DNA of 64,000 bases from an uncultured Neomegalonema sp. (GCA_937990185.1 CALKBI010000049.1:6849-70848), one strand, 5' to 3'. Shown: positions 7,529 to 50,241, counted from the stretch's first letter. The notes: generated by a model not told the origin, from the sequence alone. Program-made: numbers and translations.

Positions 7529-9196
<1,668 letters not shown>

Positions 9197-29315: not shown

Positions 29316-29505
29316 AGCATAGACGCTCTTCGGCATTTGATGGGTCATGCCGAATCTGGTCCATATCTCTTGATACAAATATGAATGACCGTTTTGGATG
29401 TGATCTTTTGTAGAGAAGATCGTCAGGCACGATCATCCTTGAATGCATGATCTGCAATTGATAATCTCGGAATTGCGGGGCGCTCGAAACTACGGAGCGA
29501 GTTCT

Positions 29506-29934
29506 ATGAAAACTCTCACGTCACTTATTTTTATCTCGACCCTGACCGTCCTTTCCGCTTGCGCGACAACGGGTCAAAACGTGACCGCGACAACGGAAGC
29601 CCTTAAAGGAGAAATCGTCCTTTCAGAGCCTATCGAAAACATAAGCGCGACCGGCGGTAGAGCAGCGATTGCCGTTGGTTCCGCAGTCGTGGGCGCTCTT
29701 ATTCCCGGTCCTTGGGGAAGCGTTGCGAGTGTTGCCACTGGACAGGCAGGCAACGTCGCTGTTTCAAATTCGGGTGCGACAGGTTCGACCCGGTATCATG
29801 TACGCTTACCGGATGAGACTATCGTCGCTTACGATCAAGCGCAGGCTCCATCGCTTGCCACCGGGACGCCGGTAGACATCATTACGATGTCGGACGGTTC
29901 AAAACGTGTGATCCCGACAAAGGCAGCTCAATAG
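29506..29934 (+). CDS. hypothetical lipoprotein (Gly-rich)
   Basis: MKTLTSLIFISTLTVLSAC lipobox, followed by a Gly/Ala/Val-rich segment. Confidence 0.6.
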   Translation: MKTLTSLIFISTLTVLSACATTGQNVTATTEALKGEIVLSEPIENISATGGRAAIAVGSAVVGALIPGPWGSVASVATGQAGNVAVSNSGATGSTRYHVRLPDETIVAYDQAQAPSLATGTPVDIITMSDGSKRVIPTKAAQ

Positions 29935-30104
29935 CTGATCCTTTTGGGCGCATGATAGAGTCAGACGAACAACCGGTAGTTTAATGATTGCTTGAGTTTG
30001 CGCTAAACAAAAACAAGCTCATTGTAACAATTGTTTGATTATGAAACATAATAGGTTGGTCCACGTTGTTATTCAGTAAGTGAAAAACAACGGGGTCAAT
30101 CAAC

Positions 30105-33100
30105 GTGAGCTTTATATCAGAGTCGGACCGCTCTCAAGGTCAGTTACGCAGTATTGCAGCGCTATTTGAACGCTTTAACGCAAGATTTTCGAACAACGAC
30201 CGGGGCGGCAATAATAGCATTAGAGGCGGAGCACAAGGCCAATCGAATCCGAGTGGCAATGCATCCTCGAGCGAAAAACTCCGCCCAACAACACCAACAA
30301 TTGTGTCTCGCAGTGAAACACTTGACTCCGGTCCCGCGACTTCAGCACCGGGCGTCGCAGTTTCATTATCCGGCGGAGGAACGAACGCGGGCGCGTCGCT
30401 GCTGAATCAGGGAGCGATTGTTGGGCGCGGCCAAGCCCCCGCATCTGACGTGACCGCTGGGGATGGTGTGCGGTTCGAAGGTCCTCGCGCTGCTGAAGGC
30501 GGCTTCGAGGCTGCATCATTCGGGGGCATCGTTGCCAATCAGGGTAGCATCACTTCTGAAAGCGAAGTTGGTTCAACGGCGGGTCTGCGATTTGTGGATG
30601 GCGTTGGTGTGCAAGGGCCGGTCATTAATGCTCCCGGCGGCGAGATTTCGGGAACCAATAACGGCGTCTACTTTGGTGAAGCGGATCACTCTGGTGGACG
30701 CTTTGTGAATGCGGGAACTGTGAGTTCAGACAGCCGCGCTGTGAACATTGACGGTGACGGCCTACAGGTTGTGAATGCCGGCGCGATTGTCGGCACGGGT
30801 GATCAGCGTAACGGCACGGTTTATTCCGATAATACGGCGAGCAACTTCGATATCGTGAATACTGGCAGCGGTGTGATTGATGCTGGCGAAGGCAATGACG
30901 GCGCTGGCATTTCGTTATCGCTGGAGGCTGACGGTAGCAATGGCGAGATTAATGTCATCAACCAAGGTACTGTTGCCGGACGTGGCCAAGCTGATGCATC
31001 CGCTGCGACTGCTGGAGACGGCATTCGTCTTGAAGGCAACAGAAGCGCTGACGGTGTTCCGCCGGGTATCTTCGAAGGCAATGTCGTAAACCGGGGTAGC
31101 GTAACATCCGAAAGCGGTGTTGGCGCGACATCGGGCTTTCGCGCAGTTGATGGGCTTGGTGTTCAAGGCAACATCATCAATGGTCGCGGTGGCGAGATTT
31201 CGGGAACCAATAACGGCGTCTACTTTGGTGACGGTGATCACTCCGGTGGACGCTTTGTGAATGCGGGAACTGTGAGTTCAGACAGCCGCGCTGTGAATAT
31301 TGATGGTGACGGCCTACAGGTTGTGAATGCCGGCGCGATTGTCGGCACGGGTGATCAGCGTAACGGTACGGTTTATTCCGATAATACGGCGAGCAACTTC
31401 GACATCGTGAATACCGGCAGCGGTGTGATTGATGCTGGTGAAGGCAATGACGGCGCTGGCATTTCGTTATCGCTGGAGGCTGACGGTAGTAATGGCGAGA
31501 TCAATGTTGTGAACCGGGGCAGTATCTCTGGGCGTGGTCAGGGTGATGCATCCGCCGCTACCGCTGGAGACGGCATCCGTCTTGAAGGCAACAGAAGCGC
31601 TGACGGTGTTCCACCGGGTATCTTCGAAGGCAATGTCGTAAACCGGGGTAGCGTAACATCCGAGAGCGGTGTTGGAGCGACATCCGGCTTCCGCGCAGTT
31701 GATGGGCTTGGTGTGCAAGGCAACATCATCAATGGACGCGGCGGCGAGATTTCGGGAACCAATAACGGCGTCTACTTTGGTGACGGTGATCACTCCGGTG
31801 GACGCTTTGTGAATGCGGGAACTGTAAGCTCAGACAGCCGCGCTGTGAACATTGACGGTGATGGTCTGCAGGTTGTGAATACCGGCGCGATTGTCGGTAC
31901 GGGTGATCAACGTAATGGTACGGTTTATTCCGATAATACGGCGAGTAACTTCGACATCGTGAATACCGGCAGCGGTGTGATTGATGCCGGCGAAGGCAAT
32001 GAAGGCGCGGGCATTTCGCTATCGTTGGAGGCTGACGGCAGCAACGGTGAGATCAATGTTGTGAACCGGGGCAGTATCTCTGGGCGTGGTCAGGGTGATG
32101 CATCCGCCGCTACCGCTGGAGACGGCATCCGCCTTGAAGGCAACAGAAGCGCTGACGGCGTTCCGCCGGGTATCTTCGAAGGCAATGTCGTAAACCGGGG
32201 TAGTATCGCGTCTGAAAGCGGTGTCGGTCCAACAGCAGGCTTCCGCACAGTCGATGGGCTTGGTGTTCAGGGGAATGTCGTCAACCGCGCTGGTGGCGAA
32301 ATTTCTGGAACCAATAACGGCGTTTATTTTGGTGACGGTGATCACTCCGGTGGCCGCTTCGTGAATAGGGGGACTGTAAGTTCTGACAGCCGTGCGGTGA
32401 ACATTGACGGTGACGGCCTACAGACCGTTAACTCCGGTACAATCATCGGAACGGGCGATCAACGTAACGGCACGGTCTATGGTGATGGGTCGGCTGAAAA
32501 CTTCTCCGTTACCAATACTGCCAGTGGTGTGATTGATGCCGGTGAAGGTAATAACGGTTCTGCCCTCGCCCATGAAATCGGCGATGAAACCGGAGACCTT
32601 GTTGATGGCAGCATTAACAATGCTGGCACACTTCAAGGGCGTGGGACCGGAGACACGGCGGCGACAATCGGCCATGGGCTTCGCCTCAATGGCGGTGCGG
32701 GAACTGAAGGAACCGCAGCCTTTACTGGTGATATTGTCAACAGCGGAAATATTGCCGGTTCGGCAGATAGCGCCGCCGCCGCAGGCATCAGTATTGAGGA
32801 GGTCGGCGTTAGCGGTCCTATCGTCAACACTGGATCAGTTTCAGGGTCGGTCAATGCGATTGACGCTTCAACCGCGACCAGCGGCATTACCGTTGTGAAT
32901 GCTGGTGAGATTGATGGCAACGTGATCCTGTCGGAGAACGATGATGTCTTCACGCTGAGAGAAGGCGGGTCCATTGATGGTCTGGTCGATGGCGGAGAGG
33001 GTTTCGATACTCTCAATCTCGACTTCGATGATGAAGCTGCTGCGGTTCAATTTGCCAATAGCGAAGACATCAGCGGCTTTGAGCGTATTAACATTAGTGG

Positions 33101-33125
33101 GGTTCAGTACAACCCGACAGCTTAA
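30105..33125 (+). CDS. large repetitive beta-helix-like secreted/surface protein candidate
   Basis: 1006 aa with a GTG start. A Gly/Asn/Ser-rich N-terminus with no signal peptide is followed by four 184-aa near-identical repeats plus a degenerate fifth. The C-terminus carries DGGEGFDTLNLDF, an RTX-like nonapeptide. Confidence 0.75.
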   Translation: MSFISESDRSQGQLRSIAALFERFNARFSNNDRGGNNSIRGGAQGQSNPSGNASSSEKLRPTTPTIVSRSETLDSGPATSAPGVAVSLSGGGTNAGASLLNQGAIVGRGQAPASDVTAGDGVRFEGPRAAEGGFEAASFGGIVANQGSITSESEVGSTAGLRFVDGVGVQGPVINAPGGEISGTNNGVYFGEADHSGGRFVNAGTVSSDSRAVNIDGDGLQVVNAGAIVGTGDQRNGTVYSDNTASNFDIVNTGSGVIDAGEGNDGAGISLSLEADGSNGEINVINQGTVAGRGQADASAATAGDGIRLEGNRSADGVPPGIFEGNVVNRGSVTSESGVGATSGFRAVDGLGVQGNIINGRGGEISGTNNGVYFGDGDHSGGRFVNAGTVSSDSRAVNIDGDGLQVVNAGAIVGTGDQRNGTVYSDNTASNFDIVNTGSGVIDAGEGNDGAGISLSLEADGSNGEINVVNRGSISGRGQGDASAATAGDGIRLEGNRSADGVPPGIFEGNVVNRGSVTSESGVGATSGFRAVDGLGVQGNIINGRGGEISGTNNGVYFGDGDHSGGRFVNAGTVSSDSRAVNIDGDGLQVVNTGAIVGTGDQRNGTVYSDNTASNFDIVNTGSGVIDAGEGNEGAGISLSLEADGSNGEINVVNRGSISGRGQGDASAATAGDGIRLEGNRSADGVPPGIFEGNVVNRGSIASESGVGPTAGFRTVDGLGVQGNVVNRAGGEISGTNNGVYFGDGDHSGGRFVNRGTVSSDSRAVNIDGDGLQTVNSGTIIGTGDQRNGTVYGDGSAENFSVTNTASGVIDAGEGNNGSALAHEIGDETGDLVDGSINNAGTLQGRGTGDTAATIGHGLRLNGGAGTEGTAAFTGDIVNSGNIAGSADSAAAAGISIEEVGVSGPIVNTGSVSGSVNAIDASTATSGITVVNAGEIDGNVILSENDDVFTLREGGSIDGLVDGGEGFDTLNLDFDDEAAAVQFANSEDISGFERINISGVQYNPTA
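30399..32606. repeat. tandem array of 552-bp (184-codon) units inside the CDS
   Basis: The marker ggcga(g/a)atttc(g/t)ggaaccaataacggcgt recurs at 30639, 31191, 31743 and 32295, exactly 552 bp apart. Copies 2 and 3 are nearly identical at the DNA level. Confidence 0.9.
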
Positions 33126-33202
33126 GTGCGCCTAACAGGTTACTCAAAAACCGGTTGCAATATTTTTTCGTTTAACGAACGCGACAATCAAACGATAATT
33201 TT

Positions 33203-33234
33203 GGCCCTCCTGCATTGGAGGGCCATTTTTGTTT
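33203..33234 (+). terminator. intrinsic terminator after the repeat-protein gene
   Basis: ggccctcc-tgcatt-ggagggcc followed by atttttgttt. Confidence 0.65.
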
Positions 33235-33299
33235 CTGAATGTCTGTGTAGAAAACCAAAAGAACAATCGGGCATCGACTTCAGCCGGGGATACTTCCGT

Positions 33300-34622
33300 T
33301 CAGAGCGTTCTTACTGCTGCTTCGATTGCGGTTCGGTGCGCGTTGTGTATTACGATTTGCGGACGGGCGCGCTGTAAATGCATTATTGCGTCATCCACAC
33401 TGGCATACCCACCGTAACGGACAAGCCATGCGACGGCGACGCTGGCCGAGCGAGAAAAACCCAGCGCGCAGCAAATCTGAACCGGCGACCCACTCTTGTG
33501 TGCCAACTCCACCGATAAGGCGGCTCGGGCGATTGTCTCCGGTTCAGGAACGATCAAATCCAAAGTTGAATGTGCAATCCAGTCTTTACCGTTGCTACGC
33601 CCGGGCAATTCGGCGCACATATCTACAATAGTGGTCCCGGCTTTGGGACGGCGAGGGCGCGGGCCGATGCTGATGCCCGGCGCGAACTCAGCCGTTGCGG
33701 GCAGGCCGCGAGTCCAAATCGCAGCGTTCAGCTTCACCCCAAGCAGGTATGGTTCCAAGAGCCATTTCGCCGCAAAGCTCATCTCCCCGGTCTCATCTTT
33801 CTGAAAGGTTATCGTGCCGAGAAAAGCATAAGCCGATGCTACCATTGTCAGACTGAGCGTTGGCCACAATAACCAGAGAAACCATCCGCCAAAGCCAATC
33901 GCTGCGATGGCAGATAACGCGGCGCCAATCGCGTAGAACGATGCCAGCCGCCAGCGCTTAGGATTGCTGGCCAGTTTTGCAGAGGCGAGCGGACTACGTC
34001 CGGTTTCAGGCCACAGCCATAAACAAAACAGGCCGAGCGCCGCGCCGGTCGGTACATCGAAAAAATGATGCTGATTGGCTGTCAGCACGGATATGCCGAT
34101 CAGGCCCGCCCAGATGTGCATGGGGATGTGCCAGCGTTTTGGAATGTGCCGCGCGTAATGAACCCAGAGGATGACCAATAGCGCGATATGCAGTGATGGA
34201 GCGAGGTTGAACGGCTTGCCAACCATGTCTTCCAATGCTGCGAAGAAGAACGCAAAAATACCTGTATCTGCGGGGATCGTGGAGGTGAGTTTTAGGGGTG
34301 CGATGATAAAAATCGTCACCGCAATTACCTGTGCGCTCAACAACCGCAGACCAAGCCGATCCAGCTCGAACCGCGTAACGCATAGAAACAACGATAGCCC
34401 ATAGAGTAGATCAATCGACCAATAAGGTACGACCGTCCACGCGAGAAACGGAATGTGGCGTTCCCATTCGAATACCAAAACGGGGACATGCGAGCGCCAT
34501 GAGACGATCTCCAGCGAGCCAAGATAGGTAATGAAGAAAAACGGCGCGAGAAATGACAGCCAGAGCAACGCCCGCCAAAAGGGGCGAGCCACTTGGTCAT
34601 CCGTTGGGTGTTGAAAAGTCAT
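33300..34622 (-). CDS. PAP2-like (sphingomyelin/IPC-synthase-like) membrane domain fused to a dual-specificity phosphatase domain
   Basis: A multi-TM N-terminal domain carries APSLH and NQHHFFDVPTG, which are PAP2 C2/C3-like motifs. The C-terminal domain carries CALGFSRS, the CX5R(S/T) phosphatase loop. The ATG at 34622 overlaps the upstream stop (ATGA). Confidence 0.75.
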   Translation of the reverse strand: MTFQHPTDDQVARPFWRALLWLSFLAPFFFITYLGSLEIVSWRSHVPVLVFEWERHIPFLAWTVVPYWSIDLLYGLSLFLCVTRFELDRLGLRLLSAQVIAVTIFIIAPLKLTSTIPADTGIFAFFFAALEDMVGKPFNLAPSLHIALLVILWVHYARHIPKRWHIPMHIWAGLIGISVLTANQHHFFDVPTGAALGLFCLWLWPETGRSPLASAKLASNPKRWRLASFYAIGAALSAIAAIGFGGWFLWLLWPTLSLTMVASAYAFLGTITFQKDETGEMSFAAKWLLEPYLLGVKLNAAIWTRGLPATAEFAPGISIGPRPRRPKAGTTIVDMCAELPGRSNGKDWIAHSTLDLIVPEPETIARAALSVELAHKSGSPVQICCALGFSRSASVAVAWLVRYGGYASVDDAIMHLQRARPQIVIHNAHRTAIEAAVRTL

Positions 34623-36379
34623 TTCGACACCCGCTGTGCCAAGCTGACCGTGAAGATGCCCCACTTGTCGATGCGCTGGTCGATCTTTTGGAACCCTGCT
34701 TCTACGACGAGTTGGTCCATTTCGGCCTGCACCCGTCGCCGCATAACCCATGCTTCGCCGCCGCGATGCGAGGTCAACGCCCGCGCGATCAGCTCTAATT
34801 GCGGATGCCATGGTTGTCCGGTGTAAACGAGATAACCGCCCTCTGGTATTGCGTGTCCCAACCCTTTCAACGATCTGCCGACCATTTCGTTGTCGGGGAA
34901 AAGTTCATAAAGGCCGGACACAATGGCGAGCGTTGGCTGCGGGTCGAGCGCTGCCAAATCTTCGCCATCGAACGCATCGCCTTGTTCAAACCGCGCAATA
35001 TCCGCGAGGTCCTTTTCTGCGATTAATGCGCGGCCTGCTTCGACATTGATATCGCTATAATCGCGCAGCAAGATACTGTCGGGTTTATCTTCTCGGGCCG
35101 TCAAAGCCTCTAGCACATAGCGCCCGTGGCCAGCGGCTATATCGACAATTCTGCTCGGTTGACCTTCGGCTTTTAGGCGCGAAAGAGCCGTGCCAATCAG
35201 TTCCTCGGTATTGAGTTTGCGTTGTCTAATGCCGCGCCAACCGATTGAGTTGAGATAGTTCTTGTCAATCAGACGACCGATTGGAGACGTCCCGCGTGGT
35301 TCGTTACGATAAACGTAATCGAGTGTAGAACCAGAATCGAAACCTGTCTCATGTCCCAGTGCGACACCCTCGGAGAGCTTGCCGCCAAGACGCATTGATG
35401 CCCGTGTTGCGGCCCAGTAAAGACCGAGCGAGCCGGTCGCAGGCGAGGCGAGCGCTTCTGCTTCATCTCTCGTGTAGCCCATCCGGTGAGCATCTAATAA
35501 ACTGGCCTGTTCGACGGGCCGCGCAAAGCAATCCGTAATGAAGCGGTTAATTTCGGTCAACGGTATCGCACGATCTTTTTCGCCCAATGTGTCGTGGAAG
35601 AATCCCTCAAGCACATGCCGTTCTTTCTTGGCCGACCCGAGATTGACGAAGAAATCATGCTGTGCTTTTGCGCGTACCACTTTGTCTGCGCCGGAAATGA
35701 ATAGTTGCACGGGACAGGTGATGGCTTTGGCATCCGAGACAACTCTTTCAGCAACTTTGTAGACATCCAACAACAGCGTCGAGGAAATGGGCCGGGTTAT
35801 CAGTGGATCAGTTTTGTAACTTGCGATCCGTTCAGCATCATGGGTCAGCATCTCTGGCTTTACGTAGCTGTTGACCATGAAGTTGCCTCTGATCTTTTGC
35901 CACAGTGTCAGGGCAGGGCGTGCGCCGGGGACAATCAGGTCAATGTCAAAAGCAGGAGAAGCCAGAACCATTGCGCGGATACGCGGTGCGTAATCATGCA
36001 CCCAAGCCGAGGCGATCACCGACCCAACGCTTTGGGCAAGGATTGCAATGTCCTCAATGGCCACTTTATCTTCATCGCAAATGTGCCGCACAAACGCGTC
36101 GGCATCGCGGATCAGCGTTGCGAAATCGGGTGCGGAGCCGGGTGCGCCCTCGGACCTCCCATGCCCCCTCGCGTCCCACGCATAAAAGTCAAACTCAGCT
36201 AACCCGCTTTCCTCGACCAGATGCGCCATGCGTCCACCATGCTCGTGGCCCCGATGGAACATCACGACGGCCCCCTTGGACACACCGCTGCGGGTTGGCC
36301 AATGACGAAAGAAAATTGACGATCCATCATGTGCAGTGAACTGGCGTTCTATGAACGCATGATGTGATTTCTCTGGCAT
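34619..36379 (-). CDS. alpha/beta hydrolase (lysophospholipase-like) fused to a class I SAM-dependent methyltransferase
   Basis: The N-terminal half has HRGHEHGGR, the nucleophile elbow AQSVG and GFFHD. The C-terminal half has methyltransferase motif I VDIAAGHGRY and downstream IVSGLYELF. Confidence 0.8.
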   Translation of the reverse strand: MPEKSHHAFIERQFTAHDGSSIFFRHWPTRSGVSKGAVVMFHRGHEHGGRMAHLVEESGLAEFDFYAWDARGHGRSEGAPGSAPDFATLIRDADAFVRHICDEDKVAIEDIAILAQSVGSVIASAWVHDYAPRIRAMVLASPAFDIDLIVPGARPALTLWQKIRGNFMVNSYVKPEMLTHDAERIASYKTDPLITRPISSTLLLDVYKVAERVVSDAKAITCPVQLFISGADKVVRAKAQHDFFVNLGSAKKERHVLEGFFHDTLGEKDRAIPLTEINRFITDCFARPVEQASLLDAHRMGYTRDEAEALASPATGSLGLYWAATRASMRLGGKLSEGVALGHETGFDSGSTLDYVYRNEPRGTSPIGRLIDKNYLNSIGWRGIRQRKLNTEELIGTALSRLKAEGQPSRIVDIAAGHGRYVLEALTAREDKPDSILLRDYSDINVEAGRALIAEKDLADIARFEQGDAFDGEDLAALDPQPTLAIVSGLYELFPDNEMVGRSLKGLGHAIPEGGYLVYTGQPWHPQLELIARALTSHRGGEAWVMRRRVQAEMDQLVVEAGFQKIDQRIDKWGIFTVSLAQRVSK

Positions 36380-36448
36380 TCTCTATACCCCAATTTGATA
36401 GCGCATGACGGTAAGTCGGCGTGTTCTTGGGCGAGTATAGCAAAGAAA

Positions 36449-42160: not shown

Positions 42161-42583
42161 ATGACCGCAGAAACTTTCGATGAGCTTGTAGAGAATTTCG
42201 AGCTGTTCGATGATTGGGAAGAGCGGTATCGGTATGTCATAGACCTCGGGAAACAAATGCCTGATTTTCCGGAAGCATTGAAAACAGATGCGACGCTGGT
42301 TGAGGGATGTGTCAGCCGTGTCTGGCTCGAAGAAAAAATTACTGGCGAAGGCCCAGAAGCCATCATTGAATTTTCGGGTGATAGTGACGCCTTCATCGTC
42401 AAGGGTCTGATTGCTGTTCTACAAAAATTGTTCTCAGGCCAGACCGCTCAAAGCATTTTGGATACTGATGTGTCCAAAGAGCTATCGCGACTTGATTTGT
42501 CGGCCCATCTCAGTCCGCAACGCAGCAATGGTCTGAATTCAATGGTGGGGAGAATTCGGGGATACGCAGAATTGCAGCTTTAA
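42161..42583 (+). CDS. sufE: SufE-family cysteine desulfuration protein
   Basis: VEGCVSRVWL active-site region; 140 aa. Confidence 0.9.
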   Translation: MTAETFDELVENFELFDDWEERYRYVIDLGKQMPDFPEALKTDATLVEGCVSRVWLEEKITGEGPEAIIEFSGDSDAFIVKGLIAVLQKLFSGQTAQSILDTDVSKELSRLDLSAHLSPQRSNGLNSMVGRIRGYAELQL

Positions 42584-43099
42584 GTCTTTACACGTGAAAA
42601 GCTAAAGTTTCTATTTTTGAATTTATTTCGAAATCGTTCTGAAAGTTAATAAATATTAACTTATTAACCCATTTTGAACCACACAAGCATGTGATCGCGC
42701 ATGGACTCAAACGAATCCGAAAGCGGCCCAGTCAATCGTTACCGTCGCCTCTAGGATTGCGATCCCCGAATCGAGACACAGTCCAATGTTTATGGCGACC
42801 AATCGCTCTGCCCAGCTCATAGGGTCCCCCGACCGTTAATCTGTATGCTGAAGGACTGTTGTCTCATGAGACACGGCTTAACACAAGGTTAAAATTCTTT
42901 GCTCACTGAGGCGGCTTTGGCCTTGAAGAACAGAGTGTATTCTGTAATCTTTTGGGATCGAAAATAGTTAATGAATTAAGTGCGCGCATCTGCTTGATGT
43001 GCATTGATTGAGCAACTAACCGAGCAGTGATTCCAAGGGATGGGATCACGTCGGAAGGCGCGGAGCAAACGCTCCCGCTGAGGCGCGGGGAGCTTTTGC

Positions 43100-46000
43100 G
43101 TGGCGGCATTGAGAACTATTTCTCCATCGGAGTTCGTGCGTCGTTTGAAGCACGGTATCGTATCGCATGACAGTAAAGTCGTCTGGTTCTTGGGCGCGGG
43201 ATGTTCTGTAAGTTCTGGTGTCGACGATGCTGCAACACTGACAAATCGTTGGCTGAAAGAACTGATGTACCTTGAGACAGGTGAAGAGGATGGCTTGGAG
43301 GAGTGGGCCGAATCCCGGTTCCCGACCTATGACCGGAATGATCCTGCCTCTGCCTATATTCAAGTTCATGAAGCGCTGTTTTACACGGATCAGGATCAGC
43401 AACGCGAACAAGAAGAGTTGGCAAGTGAGGGCCAGCCGGGCTTTGGATATGCAACGCTGGCGCAACTCTTAACCCATGAAAAATGGGGTGATCGCTGCAA
43501 CACAGTCATCACCACAAACTTCGACGATTTGGCTGCCGATGCCCTTTACTTTTATTCCCAACGTAAGCCTCAGGTACTGACGCACGAATCTTTTGATCGG
43601 CATGTTCAAGTCAGCGATGCCCGCCCGACGATTGTTAAGCTGTATGGTGATGCTCACCTCAGCTCGGAATACCTCGATGGTAATCGTCGTTTACTACGGA
43701 ATGATGTGAAGAACCGCCTGCGTGCGTTGGCAACAGAATGTACGCTGGTATTTGTCGGATACGGTGGTCGGGACGATTGCATCCTCGATCTTTTCGAAGA
43801 AATGCCCCAAGGCGCTCCCTCTGGCGGTGTCTATTGGGTGAATGATAAAGCTCCCGGCAAATCGATGTCGCAATGGCTGGAAGATCGAAGAGCTGTCTGG
43901 GCGCAGAATGAGAGCTTTGATGATCTCATGTATCTGTTGCGCCGTGAGTTTCAGCTTGGCCATCCGCGCATTGATCGCTTTGACCAAATTTTGCAGAAAT
44001 ATGATGCCGAGTACCGCGCATTGGCATCGAAGAAAACGTTGCAGCCTGTCCCTGTCGATGGCCCGGTTTCCTCACCTGCCGCACCAGAGGTAAAACCTGC
44101 TGTTGTTGTCGAGCCAGTCGTTACCCGGCCTGTTGCCAATGAAGTTTCTGCGGTAAAAGAACCCGCCAATACGCCAAGCGAAACTTATATTGCGGCGACG
44201 GCAGAGGCCAAATCTTGGCCGGTTGCCACAGAACCTATGGCAGAGGAACGCTCTGAACTTCAGGAACCGACTATTGCGGCGTCAACGATGGTTGAGCCGA
44301 GCAATGACGATGAGTTGCGCGAACCTGAAATCGAAGTGCTCGATCCTGTAACACCTGATACATTGAAGACTGAACCTTTGGTCGCTGCCGCAATTGCGAT
44401 GAAAGCGCGTGAGAAGGTCGAGGCTGCTCAACGCGCCGATCCTTCCGCTCCAATGATTGAAAGTGAAGCCCGTCAGGATAATATCTCTCCTGATATAGAC
44501 AGATCGAATGACGCTGCTACAGCAAGCGCCTTTAGTGCTGCGGTTGCTGTTACGGAATCTCCCTCTAAGGCGTCATCAGTTGATGTGACCAATTTTTCTG
44601 TCAATTTGGATGAGGGTAGCTTTCCGCCAGTAAACGGTTCTGTTCGCGACTCTGAGTCGGGTGACGACGATATTTTCGAATTAAACACTGAAGCTACAGA
44701 AACTGACATCAGCGGAAATGAAACAAGCCCTGCCGCACTTGCTTCTGCGACAGTGGAAAATAACGAAGACGGATCTCGACATAAGATTGATGCGCTCATT
44801 GCCGCTGCAGTGAAAGCGATGGCCACTGATAGCCAGGAGCAAGACGCATCAAATCCTGTAGATATGTCCTCGGCCACTCTTGATAATATTACGGCGCCTC
44901 TCGGTGCATTGGACATTGACGTCGCTGATGTTGCGCCGCCTCTTGACTCGTTGGTTGCTCAACCTTTGCCAAATCGTCCTGTTGGCGCGCCAACACGTTC
45001 GACAGATGCCGAGATTATCGACATCGCAGAAGACACAGTTGATGCTGGTCCGCTGACGCCTCCGACCCGTCTGATGCGCCGCGATGATGCTGTTGCTTTA
45101 GATGCCCGATTTCGGTCAGCCCTAGCAGATAATCCCCGCGATGCGATGCTGCTCGCGGATTACGCGCAGTTCTTGACTGTGGGACGTCAGGACCATGATG
45201 GAGCGGAGCATTACTTCAATCGTGCAGTTGATGCTGATCCGCAAAACGATGCTGCATTGCGTTTGTTCGCGCGGTTTTTAACCGATATTCGCCGCGACCA
45301 TGAACGCGCTGAAGATTGTTATCGTCTGGCGATCCGCGCAAATTTCGAGAGCGCGGAGACGATGTGCAGCTACGCAGAGTTCTTGTGGCACGCTCGCGGT
45401 GATTTCGAAACGGCTGGCGAATGCTTCCAAGTTGCAGTGGATGCTGCGCCGCGCGATGCTGGGTCATTGATGCGGTATGCAGAATTCCTGAAACTTGTTC
45501 AGCGCAACGATGATGCGGCTTATGCGTTATTGAAACTTGCAGCAGCATCTGGCGGGACTGATCCGGCGGCGACGGTGGCGCTGGCAGAATTTACCGCAGC
45601 ACGTCGCGGTGATGTTGAAAAAGCTGACGTTATTTTTGAAAAGGCGCTGGAGATTGACGGCGATTCTGTAGAGACGCTGACAAGCGCTGCTCAGTTTCAT
45701 GCTCAGTATAAGGGTGACTTAAGCCGCGCTGAGACTTTGTTTGATCATGCATTAAGCGTCGATTCTGCCTCTACGGAGACGTTGTTGGCATTCGCTGATT
45801 TCCTTCGTATTCACCGATCTGATCCGGCTAAAGCCGAGGCGATGATTAAACGTGCCATGGAGGCTGATCCCGGTAATGCGGGGATTGCCGCAGCATATGC
45901 GCTCTTCCGTGATGAAGTTTTGGTTGATGATGAAGGCGCTGAGGACATGTTCCGCAAGGCCATCAATCTTGATCCCCGCGACGCGACTGTGCTGACGCAT

Positions 46001-46768
46001 TACGGACGGTTCCTCCAGTATTCTCGCCGTAAGCCTAGCGCTGCAGAAGATCGTTTGCGTAAAGCGGTTGGTATGGAGCCGCGCAATGCGCTGGCACTGC
46101 GTAGCTATGGCATGTTTTTAATTTTGGAGCGCGATAACCTCGAAGAAGGTGAGCGTTATTTGCGCCGTGCTGTCACCGCTGCACCGTCCGATGCTGAATC
46201 ACTGAGTGATTTGGCTGAATTTTTGGGAAAACGCGGCAGGAACCACGAAGAAACCGAAGATATGTTTCGCCGTGCCCTAGCTGCCGATCAATCGAGCAAA
46301 CGGACTTTACGCCGCTACGCACGTTTCTTGTCGGAAAGCAAAGGCGATACGGATGCAGCGGAAGAAATGTACCGTAAGGTGCTGGATGAACAGCCGGAAG
46401 ATGCCCGCGCGCTAAGCGGATCTGCCCATTCAATGTTTGTTCAAGGAAAACGACGGGAAGGACTTTCATTCCTGGATAAGGCTTTTGATGCCGTTATGGG
46501 TGATGAGCCACGCCGTCGTAGTATTGATTTATTGTTGGAGCTTTGGTTCTTCCGCTATTGCTTTGACGAGAACGCAAAGCGGGACGCTATTAAGGCCGCA
46601 ATCTGGTTGGTGAAAGAAGGCGCTAAAGTCACGCGGATTGATGTCAACTCTATGGTTACCCGTGCCGTTGCAGATAATCATACAGATCCAGATATTTTGC
46701 GCGAACTTGCCGGGGTTGTGAGTGGCTCTGCTGCGCCAGAACGGCTGGACAGATTCAACGTCGCCTAA
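43100..46768 (+). CDS. SIR2-like domain / acidic disordered linker / 13 x 35-aa TPR-like repeat protein
   Basis: GTG start preceded by a ggggag SD. Residues ~25-300 carry VWFLGAGCSVSSG, ITTNFDD, IVKLYGD and LVFVGYGGRDD, which are SIR2_2/ThsA-type blocks. Residues ~312-662 are low-complexity and rich in A/E/P/S/D/V. Residues 663-1128 are 35-aa repeats with pattern D..(A)E..F..A...DP.....L..YA.FL. Confidence 0.8.
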   Translation: MAALRTISPSEFVRRLKHGIVSHDSKVVWFLGAGCSVSSGVDDAATLTNRWLKELMYLETGEEDGLEEWAESRFPTYDRNDPASAYIQVHEALFYTDQDQQREQEELASEGQPGFGYATLAQLLTHEKWGDRCNTVITTNFDDLAADALYFYSQRKPQVLTHESFDRHVQVSDARPTIVKLYGDAHLSSEYLDGNRRLLRNDVKNRLRALATECTLVFVGYGGRDDCILDLFEEMPQGAPSGGVYWVNDKAPGKSMSQWLEDRRAVWAQNESFDDLMYLLRREFQLGHPRIDRFDQILQKYDAEYRALASKKTLQPVPVDGPVSSPAAPEVKPAVVVEPVVTRPVANEVSAVKEPANTPSETYIAATAEAKSWPVATEPMAEERSELQEPTIAASTMVEPSNDDELREPEIEVLDPVTPDTLKTEPLVAAAIAMKAREKVEAAQRADPSAPMIESEARQDNISPDIDRSNDAATASAFSAAVAVTESPSKASSVDVTNFSVNLDEGSFPPVNGSVRDSESGDDDIFELNTEATETDISGNETSPAALASATVENNEDGSRHKIDALIAAAVKAMATDSQEQDASNPVDMSSATLDNITAPLGALDIDVADVAPPLDSLVAQPLPNRPVGAPTRSTDAEIIDIAEDTVDAGPLTPPTRLMRRDDAVALDARFRSALADNPRDAMLLADYAQFLTVGRQDHDGAEHYFNRAVDADPQNDAALRLFARFLTDIRRDHERAEDCYRLAIRANFESAETMCSYAEFLWHARGDFETAGECFQVAVDAAPRDAGSLMRYAEFLKLVQRNDDAAYALLKLAAASGGTDPAATVALAEFTAARRGDVEKADVIFEKALEIDGDSVETLTSAAQFHAQYKGDLSRAETLFDHALSVDSASTETLLAFADFLRIHRSDPAKAEAMIKRAMEADPGNAGIAAAYALFRDEVLVDDEGAEDMFRKAINLDPRDATVLTHYGRFLQYSRRKPSAAEDRLRKAVGMEPRNALALRSYGMFLILERDNLEEGERYLRRAVTAAPSDAESLSDLAEFLGKRGRNHEETEDMFRRALAADQSSKRTLRRYARFLSESKGDTDAAEEMYRKVLDEQPEDARALSGSAHSMFVQGKRREGLSFLDKAFDAVMGDEPRRRSIDLLLELWFFRYCFDENAKRDAIKAAIWLVKEGAKVTRIDVNSMVTRAVADNHTDPDILRELAGVVSGSAAPERLDRFNVA

Positions 46769-46807
46769 TCGGTTGGGTCGTCCAAATAACCTTGAAATAT
46801 AAAGCCG

Positions 46808-46836
46808 AGGCTTCACGCTGAAATGCCGTGGAGCCT
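46808..46836 (+). terminator. hairpin downstream of the SIR2-TPR gene (weak terminator)
   Basis: aggcttcacg-N9-cgtggagcct (9 of 10 bp paired), followed by only a short T-containing tail. Confidence 0.35.
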
Positions 46837-47015
46837 ATAATTGTGTTCTCGAAGCATTTTTCTGGAATGTGTCTGCAAACATCAAAAACTGAGAGAATCT
46901 TAGGGTCGATTATGACCTTAAGCCCTTTGTTATGGATTTAAACACGGCGCTTGCTGTTCATGTAAAAACAATATAAGAAATTGTTTATATCATCATAATA
47001 CGCAGAGCTTTCGCT

Positions 47016-48032
47016 ATGTCTAATGCCCTTTCCCGGCTTCTTGAAACTCGTGATTGGCTGATGGCCGATGGTGCGACGGGCACAAACTTGTTCGCGATGG
47101 GATTGGAAGCGGGAGAGCCGCCGGAGCTTTGGAATATCGATCATCCGGAGCGGATTCGGGCCTTACATCAGGGGTTCGTTGATGCTGGGTCGGATTTGAT
47201 CCTCACTAACAGCTTTGGTGGAACGCGATACCGCTTGAAACTGCATAATCACCAAGATCGTGCGTTCGAGCTGAACAAAGCGTCGGCGGAGATCGCGCGT
47301 GCCGTTGCAGATGAGGCTGGTCGCCCGGTTATTGTTGCTGGTTCCGTAGGCCCGACAGGAGAAATTTTTGAACCTGTTGGTACGCTCTCAATTGCCGATG
47401 CGGTCATCGCTTTCGAAGAGCAAATCAAAGGCTTGATGGAAGGCGGCGCTGATGTGATTTGGGCCGAGACGATTTCATCGGAAGAAGAAATCACTGCCAT
47501 TGCTCAGGCTTGTGCCAATCTTGATGCACCGCTTTGCGCGACGTTGAGCTTTGATACTGCTGGACGGACAATGATGGGTGTGACCTCCACGGGCTATGCA
47601 GAGATACAAAAGACATTGCCTTCTCTGCCCCTCGCGTTTGGCGCGAATTGTGGAACAGGTGCACCCGATTTGCTGCGCACGGTGCTTGGGCTTACAGAAG
47701 CGTGCCCGGATGCCATTGTCATCGCTAAGGCCAATGCCGGCATCCCTAAATATGTTGATGGCATTATTGAATATGACGGCACACCGGAGTTGATGGCGGA
47801 CTATGCGCGTCTCGCTCGCGATGCCGGGGCGCGGATTATCGGTGGCTGCTGTGGAACGAAGCCAGAGCACCTTGTTGCTATGAAAGCTGCGATGGAATCG
47901 CATACTCCAACAAGGCGACCAGCATTAGAAATGATCATCTCCCGCATTGGCGATTTTTCATCAGAGGGCGATGGGACAGGCGATCAAAGCGCTGCTCCAA
48001 GACGTGAACGGCGCGGCCGCAAGCGGGCATAA
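47016..48032 (+). CDS. homocysteine S-methyltransferase domain protein (split MetH, Hcy-binding part)
   Basis: ADGATGTNL, ILTNSFG, GANCG and GGCCGT zinc/Hcy-binding motifs. No pterin-binding or B12-binding domains are present in this ORF. Confidence 0.88.
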   Translation: MSNALSRLLETRDWLMADGATGTNLFAMGLEAGEPPELWNIDHPERIRALHQGFVDAGSDLILTNSFGGTRYRLKLHNHQDRAFELNKASAEIARAVADEAGRPVIVAGSVGPTGEIFEPVGTLSIADAVIAFEEQIKGLMEGGADVIWAETISSEEEITAIAQACANLDAPLCATLSFDTAGRTMMGVTSTGYAEIQKTLPSLPLAFGANCGTGAPDLLRTVLGLTEACPDAIVIAKANAGIPKYVDGIIEYDGTPELMADYARLARDAGARIIGGCCGTKPEHLVAMKAAMESHTPTRRPALEMIISRIGDFSSEGDGTGDQSAAPRRERRGRKRA

Positions 48033-48631: not shown

Positions 48632-48819
48632 TCAGCGTGCTCCGTGGCTTTGAGTAAACATCTGTTAACAAATAGCGATGCAGGCTTGCAAATGCTTACG
48701 TTTTATAGCTTGGGTCGGAATAAGATTCTGAATTGTCGCGTCCAGTTCACATAATTGACTTGATGCAGGCAATGGTCGCAAGCGGCCCGGCTCTGCCGGC
48801 GTGATTTGGAGTGCGTAAT

Positions 48820-49521
48820 ATGGCCGACGAAGAAGACGACATCATCCTCAGCGAGTTGAGCGATGATGAGCTTGTGCTGCAAATGCACGATGACCTTTAT
48901 GACGGTCTAAAAGATGAAATTTCCGAAGGTGTGAACATTCTGCTGGAGCGCGGATGGACTCCCTACGATGTGCTGACCAAGGCATTGGTTGAAGGGATGC
49001 GAATCGTCGGTATCGACTTTCGCGATGGCATTCTCTTCGTTCCTGAAGTCTTGCTCGCCGCGAATGCAATGAAGGCAGGAATGTTTATTCTGCGGCCTTT
49101 GCTGGCGGAAACCGGTGCTCCTAAGCAAGGCAAGATGGTCATCGGGACCGTCAAAGGCGATATCCATGACATCGGCAAAAACCTTGTCGGTATGATGATG
49201 GAAGGCGCGGGCTTTGATGTGGTTGATCTCGGCATCAACAATCCCGTTGAGAACTACCTCGAAGCCATCGAGAAAGAAGACGCTGATATTCTCGGCATGT
49301 CTGCTTTGCTGACCACGACCATGCCTTATATGAAGGTCGTGATTGACGAGATGACTGCGAAAGGCATTCGCGAAAATTATGTCGTTCTTGTCGGCGGCGC
49401 ACCGCTCAATGAAGAGTTTGGTAAAGCCATCGGTGCGGATGCCTATTGTCGTGATGCGGCGGTGGCGGTTGAAACTGCTAAAGAATTCATGGAACACCGC
49501 AAGCATAACCAGACTGCATAG
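48820..49521 (+). CDS. corrinoid (B12-binding cap + B12-binding domain) protein
   Basis: DIHDIGKNLV (DxHxxG), SALLTTT and GGAPL motifs. ATG 48820 is preceded by a ggag SD. Confidence 0.88.
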   Translation: MADEEDDIILSELSDDELVLQMHDDLYDGLKDEISEGVNILLERGWTPYDVLTKALVEGMRIVGIDFRDGILFVPEVLLAANAMKAGMFILRPLLAETGAPKQGKMVIGTVKGDIHDIGKNLVGMMMEGAGFDVVDLGINNPVENYLEAIEKEDADILGMSALLTTTMPYMKVVIDEMTAKGIRENYVVLVGGAPLNEEFGKAIGADAYCRDAAVAVETAKEFMEHRKHNQTA

Positions 49522-49530
49522 GCATAGCCT

Positions 49531-50241
49531 ATGCGTCGCGGAAAAAGACAACGCAGCGGCGCAGGGACTGGCACTCAGCCAGATTTCGCCGTTGCTCTCG
49601 AAGCCCGTCTCATGGAAGACGGGCTAGATGCTTCGCGAATAAAAGCCACCCCTGAGCAAGTCATGCTAATTGCTTGCGGCGCGCTGGCACGGGAAATAAT
49701 TGCAGTGAATGAGGCGAATGGCTGGGATAATGCCGTTCTAGAATGTCTCCCTGCCAAGCTGCATAATGCTCCACAACACATTGCCGAGGCAGTCCGGGTC
49801 AAAATCCGTGATGCTAAAGCGCGCGGATTTGAATCAATTTTCGTGCTTTATGCTGATTGCGGCACAGGGGGTGCATTAGATGCGGTTTGTGCACAAGAGA
49901 ATGTCGAACGTATTCCTGGCCCGCATTGCTATGCCTTCTTTGATGGGATCGACACATTCGAAACCCGTCACGAAGAAGAGTTGGGCACGCTTTATCTGAC
50001 CGACTTTTTTGCAAAACAATTTGATGCGTTGATCTGGCGGGGCTTTGGGTTGGACCAAGCGCCCGAAATGCGTGATATTTTGTTCGCTCATTACACCCGT
50101 GTTGTGTATCTGGCACAGACTGAAAACCCTGAATTGGATGCAAAAGCTCAAGAAGCCGCAGAGCGGCTTGGCCTTAGCTATGAGCGCAGGTTTACCGGAT
50201 ATGGTGATTTAGGGACGACACTCGCTGGGTTGGCAAAATAG
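49531..50241 (+). CDS. DUF1638 domain protein (corrinoid-system accessory)
   Basis: LIACGALAREI...YADCGTGGALD pattern. It lies immediately downstream of the corrinoid protein. Confidence 0.7.
   Translation: MRRGKRQRSGAGTGTQPDFAVALEARLMEDGLDASRIKATPEQVMLIACGALAREIIAVNEANGWDNAVLECLPAKLHNAPQHIAEAVRVKIRDAKARGFESIFVLYADCGTGGALDAVCAQENVERIPGPHCYAFFDGIDTFETRHEEELGTLYLTDFFAKQFDALIWRGFGLDQAPEMRDILFAHYTRVVYLAQTENPELDAKAQEAAERLGLSYERRFTGYGDLGTTLAGLAK

What the first reader, a model, noticed from the sequence alone, without database searches (positions are those of the whole stretch)
43100..46768. Single-gene island encoding a SIR2 - disordered linker - 13x35-aa TPR-like protein: candidate novel NAD-linked defence or sensor system
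Seen in the sequence:
- One 1222-aa ORF sits between housekeeping sufE and split-metH genes. It is separated from them by unusually long AT-rich spacers of 515 bp upstream and 247 bp downstream.
- The first ~300 aa carry the SIR2_2/ThsA-type blocks FLGAGCSVSSG, ITTNFDD, VKLYGD and LVFVGYGGRDD.
- The last ~470 aa before a ~95-aa tail are helical repeats.

Established knowledge: SIR2-domain NADases are the effector modules of Thoeris ThsA, DSR1/DSR2, SIR2-HerA and SIR2-pAgo systems. DSR2 is likewise an N-terminal SIR2 domain plus a C-terminal helical-repeat sensor in a single polypeptide.

Inference: this may be a DSR-like single-protein abortive-infection or sensor system. The sensor (TPR-like solenoid) and the ~350-aa acidic linker would be a previously undescribed combination.
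Basis: partly seen in the sequence, partly recalled or inferred. Interest (0 to 1): 0.8.

Follow-up and report, generated by a model that had tools for sequence, protein, structure and literature searches.

The report
Anciently fixed SIR2-TPR gene, rewired active site
The 1222-aa SIR2–linker–TPR gene is real, but it is not a mobile defence island: it entered this bacterial lineage once, has been inherited vertically under strong constraint, and has lost the histidine that related immune NAD-destroying enzymes need, so it probably now does a lineage-specific NAD-linked cellular job.

Summary
The sequence observation is confirmed: ORF 43100..46768 (+) has an immune-type SIR2 head, a 350-aa acidic low-complexity linker, about 13 × 35-aa TPR/HAT-like repeats and a 95-aa helical tail.

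The "island / novel NADase defence" reading is only partly supported.
- **Single event.** All 25 Neomegalonema-lineage species representatives carry the gene directly after SufE. Gene tree and RNaseD+SufE tree are congruent. A sister clade shows the empty site (SufE abutting MetH-N).
- **Strong constraint.** ω is 0.017 for SIR2 and 0.056 for the TPR array, as low as or lower than most housekeeping neighbours. Repeat number is fixed.
- **Catalytic His lost.** The position (DSR2 H171, GsSir2 H186) is Tyr here and Y/F/A in 21 of 25 clade species, but His in 53 of 54 readable loci from other phyla.
- **Pocket kept but rewired.** All other NAD-pocket residues are invariant, and the water-holding +4 Arg has become a clade-invariant His (H186).

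The wider family is unnamed but large. Its tail occurs in over 1000 protein clusters behind interchangeable heads (SIR2, ParA-like, STAND-like, metallophosphoesterase, Mrr nuclease), which looks like a conflict system. The upstream "spacer" hides a conserved 37-aa micro-ORF.

Best reading: a domesticated, active-site-rewired descendant of a candidate immune family.

The parts
43100..46768 (+). Full SIR2-linker-TPR-tail gene (1222 aa, GTG start; stop codon 46766-46768)
43100..44029 (+). SIR2 domain (aa 1-310), immune-type (SIRim-like) fold with the NAD pocket retained
   Evidence: Pfam SIR2_2. PADLOC Aga_SIR2 E 2e-26. Model pLDDT 89.9; Foldseek SPARSA SIR2 E 1e-12, TMq 0.64-0.68. omega = 0.017.
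43517..43519 (+). Codon N140, equivalent to catalytic Asn DSR2 N133 / GsSir2 N142; invariant across the family
43643..43645 (+). Codon Y182, at the position of the catalytic His (DSR2 H171, GsSir2 H186, ThsA H152). Y/F/A in 21 of 25 clade species; His in 53 of 54 readable loci from other phyla
43655..43657 (+). Codon H186, invariant in the clade (26/26). Equivalent to GsSir2 R190 / DSR2 R175, the +4 residue that helps hold the catalytic waters in GsSir2. Arg in 29 of 51 other-phyla homologs, His in 4 of 51
44030..45079 (+). Acidic low-complexity linker (aa 311-660), a clade-specific insertion with variable length and sequence
   Evidence: pI 4.06, net -40, 1.7% aromatic. omega 0.17 and 10-83 gap columns in close relatives. 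Absent from homologs in other phyla, whose TPRs start at about aa 375-410. No Walker A motif and no Pfam hit.
45080..46480 (+). Array of about 13 x 35-aa TPR/HAT-like repeats (aa 661-1127)
   Evidence: Exact 35-aa spacing. TPR/HAT Pfam hits. Solenoid model pLDDT 92; OGT, SPINDLY, Ctr9 and Ski3 as structural neighbours. omega 0.056 with 0-1 gaps in six relatives.
46481..46765 (+). Conserved C-terminal helical tail (aa 1128-1222; LELWF.RY...GHP/H.DPD motifs), the family-defining module
   Evidence: Conserved in distant homologs. Tail profile finds 1067 cluster representatives, always C-terminal. omega 0.021.
42707..42820 (-). Conserved 37-aa micro-ORF (MSWAERLVAINIGLCLDSGIAILEATVTIDWAAFGFV), divergent from the SIR2-TPR gene and absent from empty-site lineages
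   Evidence: omega 0.031
42821..43099 (+). Divergent promoter / 5' leader region: invariant blocks (CAAGGTTAAAATTCTTT, GGCCTTG, TTCTGTAAT), two hairpins with compensatory changes (43021-43053, 43058-43078), and RBS GGGGAG at 43087-43092
42161..42583 (+). SufE, the upstream anchor of the insertion site
47016..48032 (+). MetH N-terminal module (homocysteine S-methyltransferase), the downstream anchor; it directly follows SufE in empty-site lineages

Best explanation
The gene is an anciently acquired, vertically inherited member of an uncharacterised modular family with the layout head domain - TPR array - conserved C-terminal tail. That family is most likely of conflict-system origin.

In the Neomegalonema lineage one copy was inserted between sufE and the split metH genes, and it has co-diverged with the housekeeping genes since. 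A small divergent micro-ORF accompanies it in part of the clade.

In this lineage four things changed or were held fixed:
- The SIR2 head kept every residue needed to bind NAD+.
- Its catalytic centre was rewired: the catalytic His was lost repeatedly (Tyr in this window), and the +4 Arg that helps hold the catalytic waters in the closest solved homolog became an invariant His.
- A long acidic disordered tether was inserted.
- The 13-repeat TPR array and tail came under strong purifying selection with a fixed repeat number.

I infer that it now works as an NAD+-linked sensor or switch. The TPR/tail platform would bind a conserved, probably cellular, protein partner. The SIR2 head would report or use NAD+ by non-canonical chemistry: either binding without turnover, or slow or altered ADP-ribosyl chemistry. 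This differs from a phage-triggered NAD+-depleting suicide enzyme.

Shown here: fold, residue mapping, synteny, co-phylogeny, selection, family modularity. Inferred: NAD+ binding, the nature of the partner, loss or alteration of NADase activity.
For: **Synteny.** SufE lies directly upstream in 25 of 25 clade species and in 0 of 55 loci from other phyla.

**Single clade.** The SIR2 gene clade has 200/200 bootstrap support. In the RNaseD+SufE tree, 7 empty-site lineages split from 22 SIR2-bearing lineages in 300/300 bootstraps. They attach where the outgroup roots the gene tree, and the internal topologies are congruent. The empty site is SufE, then about 100-130 bp, then MetH-N.

**Selection.** omega is 0.017 for SIR2, 0.056 for TPR, 0.021 for the tail and 0.17 for the linker. 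Neighbours: RNaseD 0.056, SufE 0.034, MetH-N 0.063.

**Catalytic site.** The His column is Y16/H4/F3/A2 inside the clade and H53/Y1 outside, while G32, G34, S36, N140, D142, D184, Y221 and G223 are invariant. H186 is 26/26 in the clade; outside it the position is Arg in 29 of 51.

**Mapping to experiments.** DSR2 H171A is the catalytically inactive mutant. In GsSir2, N142A, H186A, F143A, D144A, Y226A and F287A are dead, and Y89 + R190 hold the catalytic waters.

**Context.** No defence genes, tRNAs or mobile-element genes nearby, and normal GC. The linker is clade-specific. ORFs are intact at 988-1270 aa in all clade loci checked but one.
Against: No biochemical or genetic data exist.

The family context points to immunity (swappable effector-like heads), and the NAD pocket is fully intact, so an NAD-consuming role is not excluded.

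Four clade species still carry the catalytic His, and H186 may functionally replace it. Class-M sirtuins show that a His-less SIR2 can be a robust enzyme.

Low omega and stable inheritance are unusual for defence genes but not impossible, since some sensors target conserved phage proteins.

I could not measure the geometry of H186 relative to NAD+ because no model coordinates were available. Trees are neighbour-joining on limited columns. All genomes but one are MAGs. Completeness of presence across the lineage could not be tested with a second flank-anchored genome scan.
Confidence: 0.5

Rival explanations
1. It is still a DSR-like single-protein abortive-infection system. The TPR/tail senses a phage protein and releases an NADase activity of the SIR2 head, with H186 or other residues substituting for the lost His. 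It just happens to be stably inherited in this lineage.
For: Immune-type SIR2 fold; the nearest structures are all antiphage NADases and the best PADLOC hits are pAgo-associated SIR2. The NAD-binding and Asn residues are invariant. H186 occupies the position of GsSir2 R190, which sits at the catalytic waters. H186 was fixed before H182 was lost, as the H/H combinations show. The TPR + tail module is fused to typical effector-like heads elsewhere. It is a single gene with no conserved partner across phyla.
Against: His-to-Ala mutants are dead in DSR2 and SPARSA, and ThsA H152 is described as part of the catalytic dyad; here the position tolerates Y, F and A. Strict vertical inheritance at one locus through divergence where SufE is only about 47-60% identical. 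Sensor omega is 0.056 with a fixed repeat number. No defence-island context. The really variable spot lies 7-13 kb upstream.
Confidence: 0.25
2. It is an active but different enzyme: a SirTM-like, OGT-like protein ADP-ribosyltransferase. The 13-TPR superhelix would recruit a conserved cellular substrate to a His-independent SIR2 active site.
For: SirTM lacks the catalytic His yet ADP-ribosylates robustly. The top structural neighbours of the C-terminal region are the substrate-recruiting TPR superhelices of OGT and SPINDLY. The NAD pocket is intact and the domain has omega 0.017. H186 is invariant in the active-site region.
Against: In SirTM the replacement residue (Gln) is absolutely conserved together with a partner Arg, whereas position 182 here varies among Y, F, A and H. 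There is no macrodomain, GcvH-L or LplA2-type operon partner. The OGT resemblance is generic to TPR solenoids (TMq 0.34-0.40).
Confidence: 0.15
3. It is a decaying relic: a defence gene that lost its catalytic residue and is on its way to becoming a pseudogene.
For: Loss of the catalytic His. One relative (L016) has an ORF truncated at 365 aa.
Against: omega is 0.017-0.056, as low as or lower than most housekeeping neighbours (RNaseD 0.056, SufE 0.034, MetH-N 0.063). Full-length ORFs are intact in 22 of the 23 clade loci checked. The rest of the pocket is invariant and new invariant features were gained (H186, A185). The L016 break lies in the low-complexity linker on a 5.8-kb MAG contig and may be an assembly error.
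Confidence: 0.03

Closest known systems
SPARSA SIR2-APAZ (GsSir2 of Geobacter sulfurreducens; PDB 8jkz, 8jl0, 8in8)
   Same: Closest SIR2 domain by sequence (profile E 8e-14) and by fold (E 1e-12, TMq 0.64-0.68). Shared motifs: GAG.S, TTNFDD, K.(H/Y)GD, GY.GRD. The NAD-contact residues F143, D144, Y226, F287 and Y89 are all conserved here.
   Different: No APAZ domain and no adjacent short pAgo gene. The catalytic H186 is Tyr here, and R190 is His here.
DSR2 (defence-associated sirtuin 2, Bacillus subtilis)
   Same: Single polypeptide with an N-terminal SIR2 and a C-terminal alpha-solenoid sensor. N133 aligns with N140, D135 with D142, and the HGD.R motif region aligns.
   Different: The C-terminal part is unrelated (DSR2 has HTH, helix-bundle and HEAT-like domains; this protein has 35-aa TPR/HAT repeats plus a tail). 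There is no sequence match beyond aa 138-237. H171 is Tyr here. DSR2 is patchily distributed in defence contexts; this gene is vertically fixed.
Avs5 / SIR2-STAND and other STAND-TPR sensors
   Same: A SIR2 effector combined with a TPR sensor in one protein. Relatives of the TPR + tail module are fused to STAND-like P-loops (P0142, P0152, P0196).
   Different: No NTPase domain here: no Walker A motif, and the linker is low-complexity.
Unnamed SIR2_2-TPR-tail family (annotated only as 'tetratricopeptide repeat protein' or 'PilF')
   Same: Same three modules, SIR2 40-46% identical, shared tail motifs. Found in Myxococcota, Chloroflexota, Verrucomicrobiota, Gemmatimonadota, Actinomycetota, Methanosarcinaceae, Methanoperedenaceae, Heimdall- and Odinarchaeota.
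   Different: Those proteins are 670-870 aa with no long linker, fewer repeats, an intact Asn-His dyad with Arg at +4, unrelated genomic contexts and no SufE linkage.
SirTM (class M sirtuins)
   Same: A SIR2 fold lacking the catalytic His yet functional.
   Different: Different clade of the SIR2 superfamily. Fixed Gln/Arg replacement. Operon with GcvH-L, macrodomain and LplA2. No TPR.

Membership tests
Prokaryotic immune-type SIR2 (SIR2_2 / SIRim-like) domain | SIR2 Rossmann fold with GAG.S, (T)N.D and G(Y)GG motifs | tested here: met
   Pfam SIR2_2 E 1e-12. Model pLDDT 89.9; Foldseek hits to SPARSA, KomC, ThsA, HerA-SIR2, DSR2 and Avs5. Motifs invariant.
Prokaryotic immune-type SIR2 (SIR2_2 / SIRim-like) domain | Catalytic Asn-His dyad | tested here: not met
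   Asn is present (N140). The His position is Tyr (Y182), aligned to DSR2 H171 and GsSir2 H186.
DSR2 | C-terminal domains homologous to the DSR2 MID/CTD that binds the phage tail tube protein | tested here: not met
   Only SIR2 residues 138-237 align. No Dsr model in the PADLOC output. The C-terminus is TPR.
DSR2 | Phage-triggered NAD+ depletion and abortive infection | not testable with these tools
   Needs expression, phage challenge and NAD+ measurement.
SPARSA (SIR2-APAZ + short pAgo) | APAZ domain fused to SIR2, and a neighbouring short pAgo gene | tested here: not met
   PADLOC Aga_SIR2 matches cover only the SIR2 part (model positions 4-279 of 558). The neighbours are SufE and MetH modules.
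Thoeris ThsA | SIR2 + SLOG/Macro sensor domain with an adjacent TIR (ThsB) gene | tested here: not met
   ThsA models score only E 1e-3 over short stretches. There is no TIR gene in the window segment checked (30-50 kb). The TIR/SEFIR gene seen 8.5 kb upstream in relative L001 is absent here.
Avs / STAND NTPase sensors | Central P-loop STAND NTPase | tested here: not met
   No Walker A motif and no NTPase Pfam hit.
Canonical sirtuin deacylases (CobB/Sir2) | Zn-binding Cys4 module, catalytic His, match to the deacylase family model | tested here: not met
   No CxxC motifs. NCBIfam deacylase model E 0.063 over 24 aa. His absent.
Unnamed SIR2-TPR-tail family | SIR2_2 head + TPR/HAT-like array + conserved ~95-aa C-terminal tail in one polypeptide | tested here: met
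Mobile defence island | Variable presence among close relatives, atypical composition, and neighbouring defence or mobile-element genes | tested here: not met
   25 of 25 clade species carry it at the same site. Co-phylogeny. Normal GC. No defence, tRNA or mobile-element neighbours. Presence versus absence maps to a single split.

The most novel reading that the evidence does not exclude
The clade carries a new kind of SIR2 active site produced by catalytic-residue migration: Asn140 plus His186 at the former water-holding Arg position, with the ancestral His182 made dispensable. This would support new chemistry, for example ADP-ribosylation of, or NAD+-gated binding to, a conserved cellular protein recruited by the 13-TPR arm, possibly together with the co-located 37-aa micro-protein. 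It would be the first documented bacterial 'housekeeping' descendant of the antiphage SIR2 lineage. In addition, the TPR + tail module would define a large, unnamed effector-swapping immune family.
Probability: 0.2. Interest if true: 0.75.

Novelty: new variant of a known kind. Interest (0 to 1): 0.5.

Why it matters
Immune-type SIR2 domains are known as suicide NADases. Cases where such an effector becomes fixed in a bacterial lineage and is re-engineered are rare, and they show how immune modules are recycled into cell physiology. That parallels eukaryotic SIR2-like proteins such as FAM118 and SAMD9.

This locus offers a natural experiment:
- A dated single insertion, with the empty site still visible in a sister clade.
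- Repeated loss of the catalytic His after a new His was fixed four residues away.
- A cultured representative for genetics, N. perideroedes DSM 15528.

Separately, the family-specific C-terminal tail flags more than 1000 protein clusters with interchangeable effector-like heads. That is a candidate defence family that could be tested directly with the His-bearing short homologs.

Tried and rejected
- **Rfam on the whole window:** no hit at gathering thresholds, so neither spacer holds a known riboswitch or sRNA.
- **Promoter and terminator scan of 42500-47100:** no more sites than in shuffled sequence.
- **Exact-protein contig lookup for the window protein:** not on record.
- **Thoeris link:** the TIR/SEFIR gene near the ortholog in L001 is absent from the window, and that segment is variable.
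- **Partner-gene search around 54 homologs in other phyla:** nothing recurs in more than 4 loci.
- **First flank tree (SufE + MetH-N + partial fragments):** it interleaved empty-site and SIR2-bearing lineages (73/200 bootstraps). I rejected it as noise from short fragments and a probably non-orthologous MetH-N in N. perideroedes. The RNaseD+SufE tree on long loci gave 300/300.
- **Biopython tree run:** timed out and was redone with numpy.
- **Micro-ORF:** no Pfam hit. The rerun found only 22 lineage-restricted clusters.
- **RNAalifold on the leader:** overall covariation term is negligible (-0.12 kcal/mol), with only two local hairpins showing compensatory changes.
- **Considered and rejected:** canonical deacylase (no Zn module, no His), STAND sensor (no P-loop), pseudogene (omega far too low).


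Full report
**1.

An ORF of 1222 aa runs from 43100 to 46768 on the + strand. It follows SufE (42161..42583) and precedes a split MetH: S-methyl_trans at 47016..48032, B12-binding at 48811..49521 and DUF1638 at 49531..50241.

The four SIR2 motif blocks are at aa 30, 137, 179 and 217. Pfam finds SIR2_2 (aa 135-252) and many TPR/HAT families over aa ~660-1130.

The repeat anchors are exactly 35 aa apart. The linker (aa 311-660) has pI 4.06, net charge -40 and 1.7% aromatic residues.

AlphaFold models are confident: pLDDT 89.9 for aa 1-330 and 92.0 for aa 640-1222.
- The N-terminal model matches antiphage SIR2 structures: SPARSA best (E 1e-12, TMq 0.64-0.68), then KomC, ThsA, SIR2/HerA, DSR2 and Avs5.
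- The C-terminal model is a long TPR superhelix with a helical cap. Its neighbours are generic TPR scaffolds such as OGT, SPINDLY, Ctr9, Ski3 and APC/C subunits.

**2. It is not a variable island**

About 80 SIR2+TPR protein clusters exist. Orthologs at 83%, 66%, 62% and about 50% identity, and one in a Neomegalonema MAG, all sit directly after SufE.

A scan of species-representative genomes returned 80 loci:
- All 25 from the Neomegalonema lineage (including cultured N. perideroedes DSM 15528) have RNase D and SufE immediately upstream.
- None of the 55 from other phyla do.

The SufE-linked genes form one clade (200/200 bootstraps).

Those loci were all found through the SIR2 gene itself, so I also anchored a search on SufE. 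It recovered related lineages with RNase D, SufE, about 100-130 bp of spacer, then MetH-N, B12-binding and DUF1638. They have no SIR2-TPR gene and no micro-ORF.

On an RNaseD+SufE tree (513 columns), the 7 empty-site lineages separate from the 22 SIR2-bearing ones in 300/300 bootstraps. They attach on the branch where the outgroup roots the SIR2 gene tree, and the internal topologies match. So there was one gain (or one loss), followed by vertical co-divergence. An earlier tree that included short fragments was noisy and is superseded.

Other evidence agrees:
- GC content is ordinary.
- There are no tRNAs, Rfam hits or meaningful PADLOC hits among the neighbours.
- The truly variable spot lies upstream, between the inositol-phosphatase-like gene and AcnX.

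**3. Selection**

Against the closest relative, where dS is unsaturated, the values are:

| Region or gene | omega |
|---|---|
| SIR2 domain | 0.017 |
| Tail | 0.021 |
| TPR array | 0.056 (0-1 gaps in six relatives) |
| Linker | 0.17 (many indels) |
| RNase D | 0.056 |
| SufE | 0.034 |
| MetH-N | 0.063 |

ORFs are intact (988-1270 aa) in 22 of the 23 clade loci checked. The gene is functional and constrained like a housekeeping gene.

**4. The active site is rewired, not simply broken**

Y182 aligns with DSR2 H171 and GsSir2 H186. N140 aligns with DSR2 N133 and GsSir2 N142.

Published mutagenesis gives the following:
- DSR2 H171A is catalytically inactive, and ThsA N112/H152 is the catalytic dyad (PMC11263360).
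- In GsSir2, N142A, H186A, F143A, D144A, Y226A and F287A abolish NADase activity.
- Also in GsSir2, the catalytic waters are held by Y89 and R190. The double mutant is dead, while R190A alone stays active (PMC10781750).

In this family F141, D142, Y221, F273, Y86, N140 and the GAGCS loop are invariant. The two exceptions are positions 182 and 186:

| Position | Neomegalonema clade | Other phyla |
|---|---|---|
| 182 (catalytic His) | Y16 / H4 / F3 / A2 of 25 species | H53 / Y1 of 54 readable loci |
| 186 (+4, water-holding) | His in 26 of 26 | Arg 29, Leu 9, His 4 of 51 |

H/H combinations exist inside the clade, and the His-bearing species are interleaved with F and Y sisters on the tree. So H186 was fixed first, and H182 was then lost at least four times.

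NAD+ binding is therefore very probably retained, and canonical His-dependent hydrolysis is probably not. Whether H186 substitutes catalytically is open. SirTM shows that His-less sirtuins can be enzymes (PMC4518038).

**5. Clade-specific additions**

The long linker is absent from homologs in other phyla, whose TPRs start at about aa 375-410.

The 516-bp upstream "spacer" contains a conserved 37-aa ORF on the minus strand (42707..42820):
- Its mismatches among relatives have 3-nt periodicity.
- Its omega is 0.031.
- It is found in the Y and A subclades but not in the H/F subclade or in empty sites.
- Its family is 22 clusters in 5.8 billion proteins, several on contigs whose lengths match SIR2-TPR-bearing contigs.

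Between it and the SIR2-TPR start lie invariant non-coding blocks, two hairpins with compensatory changes, and an invariant RBS.

**6. The wider family**

The 95-aa tail is conserved in distant homologs. A tail-only profile finds 1067 cluster representatives, and the match is always at the C-terminus. Among the top 146 hits, 44 have a SIR2 head.

Full-length non-SIR2 members carry other heads:
- CbiA/ParA-like ATPase (matches PADLOC candidate PDC-M28B)
- AAA/STAND-like NTPase
- Metallophosphoesterase (matches PDC-S60)
- Mrr nuclease + MraZ
- Signal-peptide or coiled-coil N-termini

No partner gene recurs near the SIR2 versions. I found no paper describing SIR2-TPR or TPR-SIR2.

**7. Verdict**

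The feature is real. It is a new variant of a known kind: an anciently fixed, active-site-rewired, linker-expanded descendant of an uncharacterised SIR2-TPR-tail family.

My probabilities are:
- About 0.5 for a domesticated NAD+-linked sensor or switch acting on a conserved partner.
- About 0.25 for a still-functional defence NADase.
- About 0.15 for a His-independent ADP-ribosyltransferase.
- About 0.03 for a decaying relic.

Biochemistry on Y182 and H186 variants, and genetics in N. perideroedes, would decide between them.

Noticed in passing
window 42707..42820 (-): Unannotated, conserved 37-aa micro-ORF (MSWAERLVAINIGLCLDSGIAILEATVTIDWAAFGFV), divergent from the SIR2-TPR gene. It is a lineage-restricted orphan family (22 clusters, no Pfam). 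It is present in the Y and A subclades and absent from the H/F subclade and from empty-site lineages. It may be a partner of the SIR2-TPR protein.
   Followed up: yes
window 42821..43099 (+): Strongly conserved non-coding blocks (for example CAAGGTTAAAATTCTTT, which overlaps a promoter-like -10 at 42890-42895). Two hairpins just upstream of the RBS (43021-43053 and 43058-43078) keep pairing through compensatory changes in relatives. This may be a regulatory 5' leader.
   Followed up: partly
window ~29400..36400: This is the truly variable segment of the region. The window has a 1006-aa ORF (30105..33125 +) with no Pfam, PADLOC or PDB-sequence hit, a 503-aa protein with a C-terminal DSPc phosphatase domain (33300..34811 -), and a Hydrolase_4 + Methyltransf_20 fusion (34619..36379 -). 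The closest relative L001 has a SEFIR/TIR_2 protein there, and L003 has Patatin + AMP-binding genes. It may be a defence or variable hotspot.
   Followed up: partly
outside the window: proteins P0083-P0228: The family-specific C-terminal tail + TPR module occurs in more than 1000 protein clusters behind interchangeable N-terminal heads (SIR2, ParA/CbiA-like, STAND-like P-loop, metallophosphoesterase, Mrr nuclease + MraZ, secreted or coiled-coil forms). This is a candidate large, unnamed effector-swapping family.
   Followed up: partly
L033 (N. perideroedes DSM 15528, NZ_KB893653.1), locus 8991-8994: In N. perideroedes the SIR2-TPR stop overlaps the start of the downstream S-methyltransferase by 4 bp, which suggests translational coupling. 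In the window the gap is 247 bp. In the L018-L025/L073 subgroup, thiamine genes follow instead.
   Followed up: no
L016:1641-2738: One relative's ORF is truncated at 365 aa by a frame break in the low-complexity linker, although the TPR part is still detectable downstream. It is either an assembly error on a 5.8-kb MAG contig or a real pseudogene.
   Followed up: no
L014:9525-11715: A 2.2-kb insertion lies between the SIR2-TPR gene and MetH-N in one close relative. Its content was not examined.
   Followed up: no
L044 (Methanosarcinaceae MAG, CAVSHT010000011.1): This is the only homolog outside the Neomegalonema clade with Tyr instead of the catalytic His, an independent occurrence of the same substitution.
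   Followed up: no
window 34619..34811 (-): The ORFs 33300..34811 and 34619..36379 overlap by 193 bp on the same strand. The start codon of the downstream (DSPc) ORF is probably miscalled by the mechanical ORF list.
   Followed up: no
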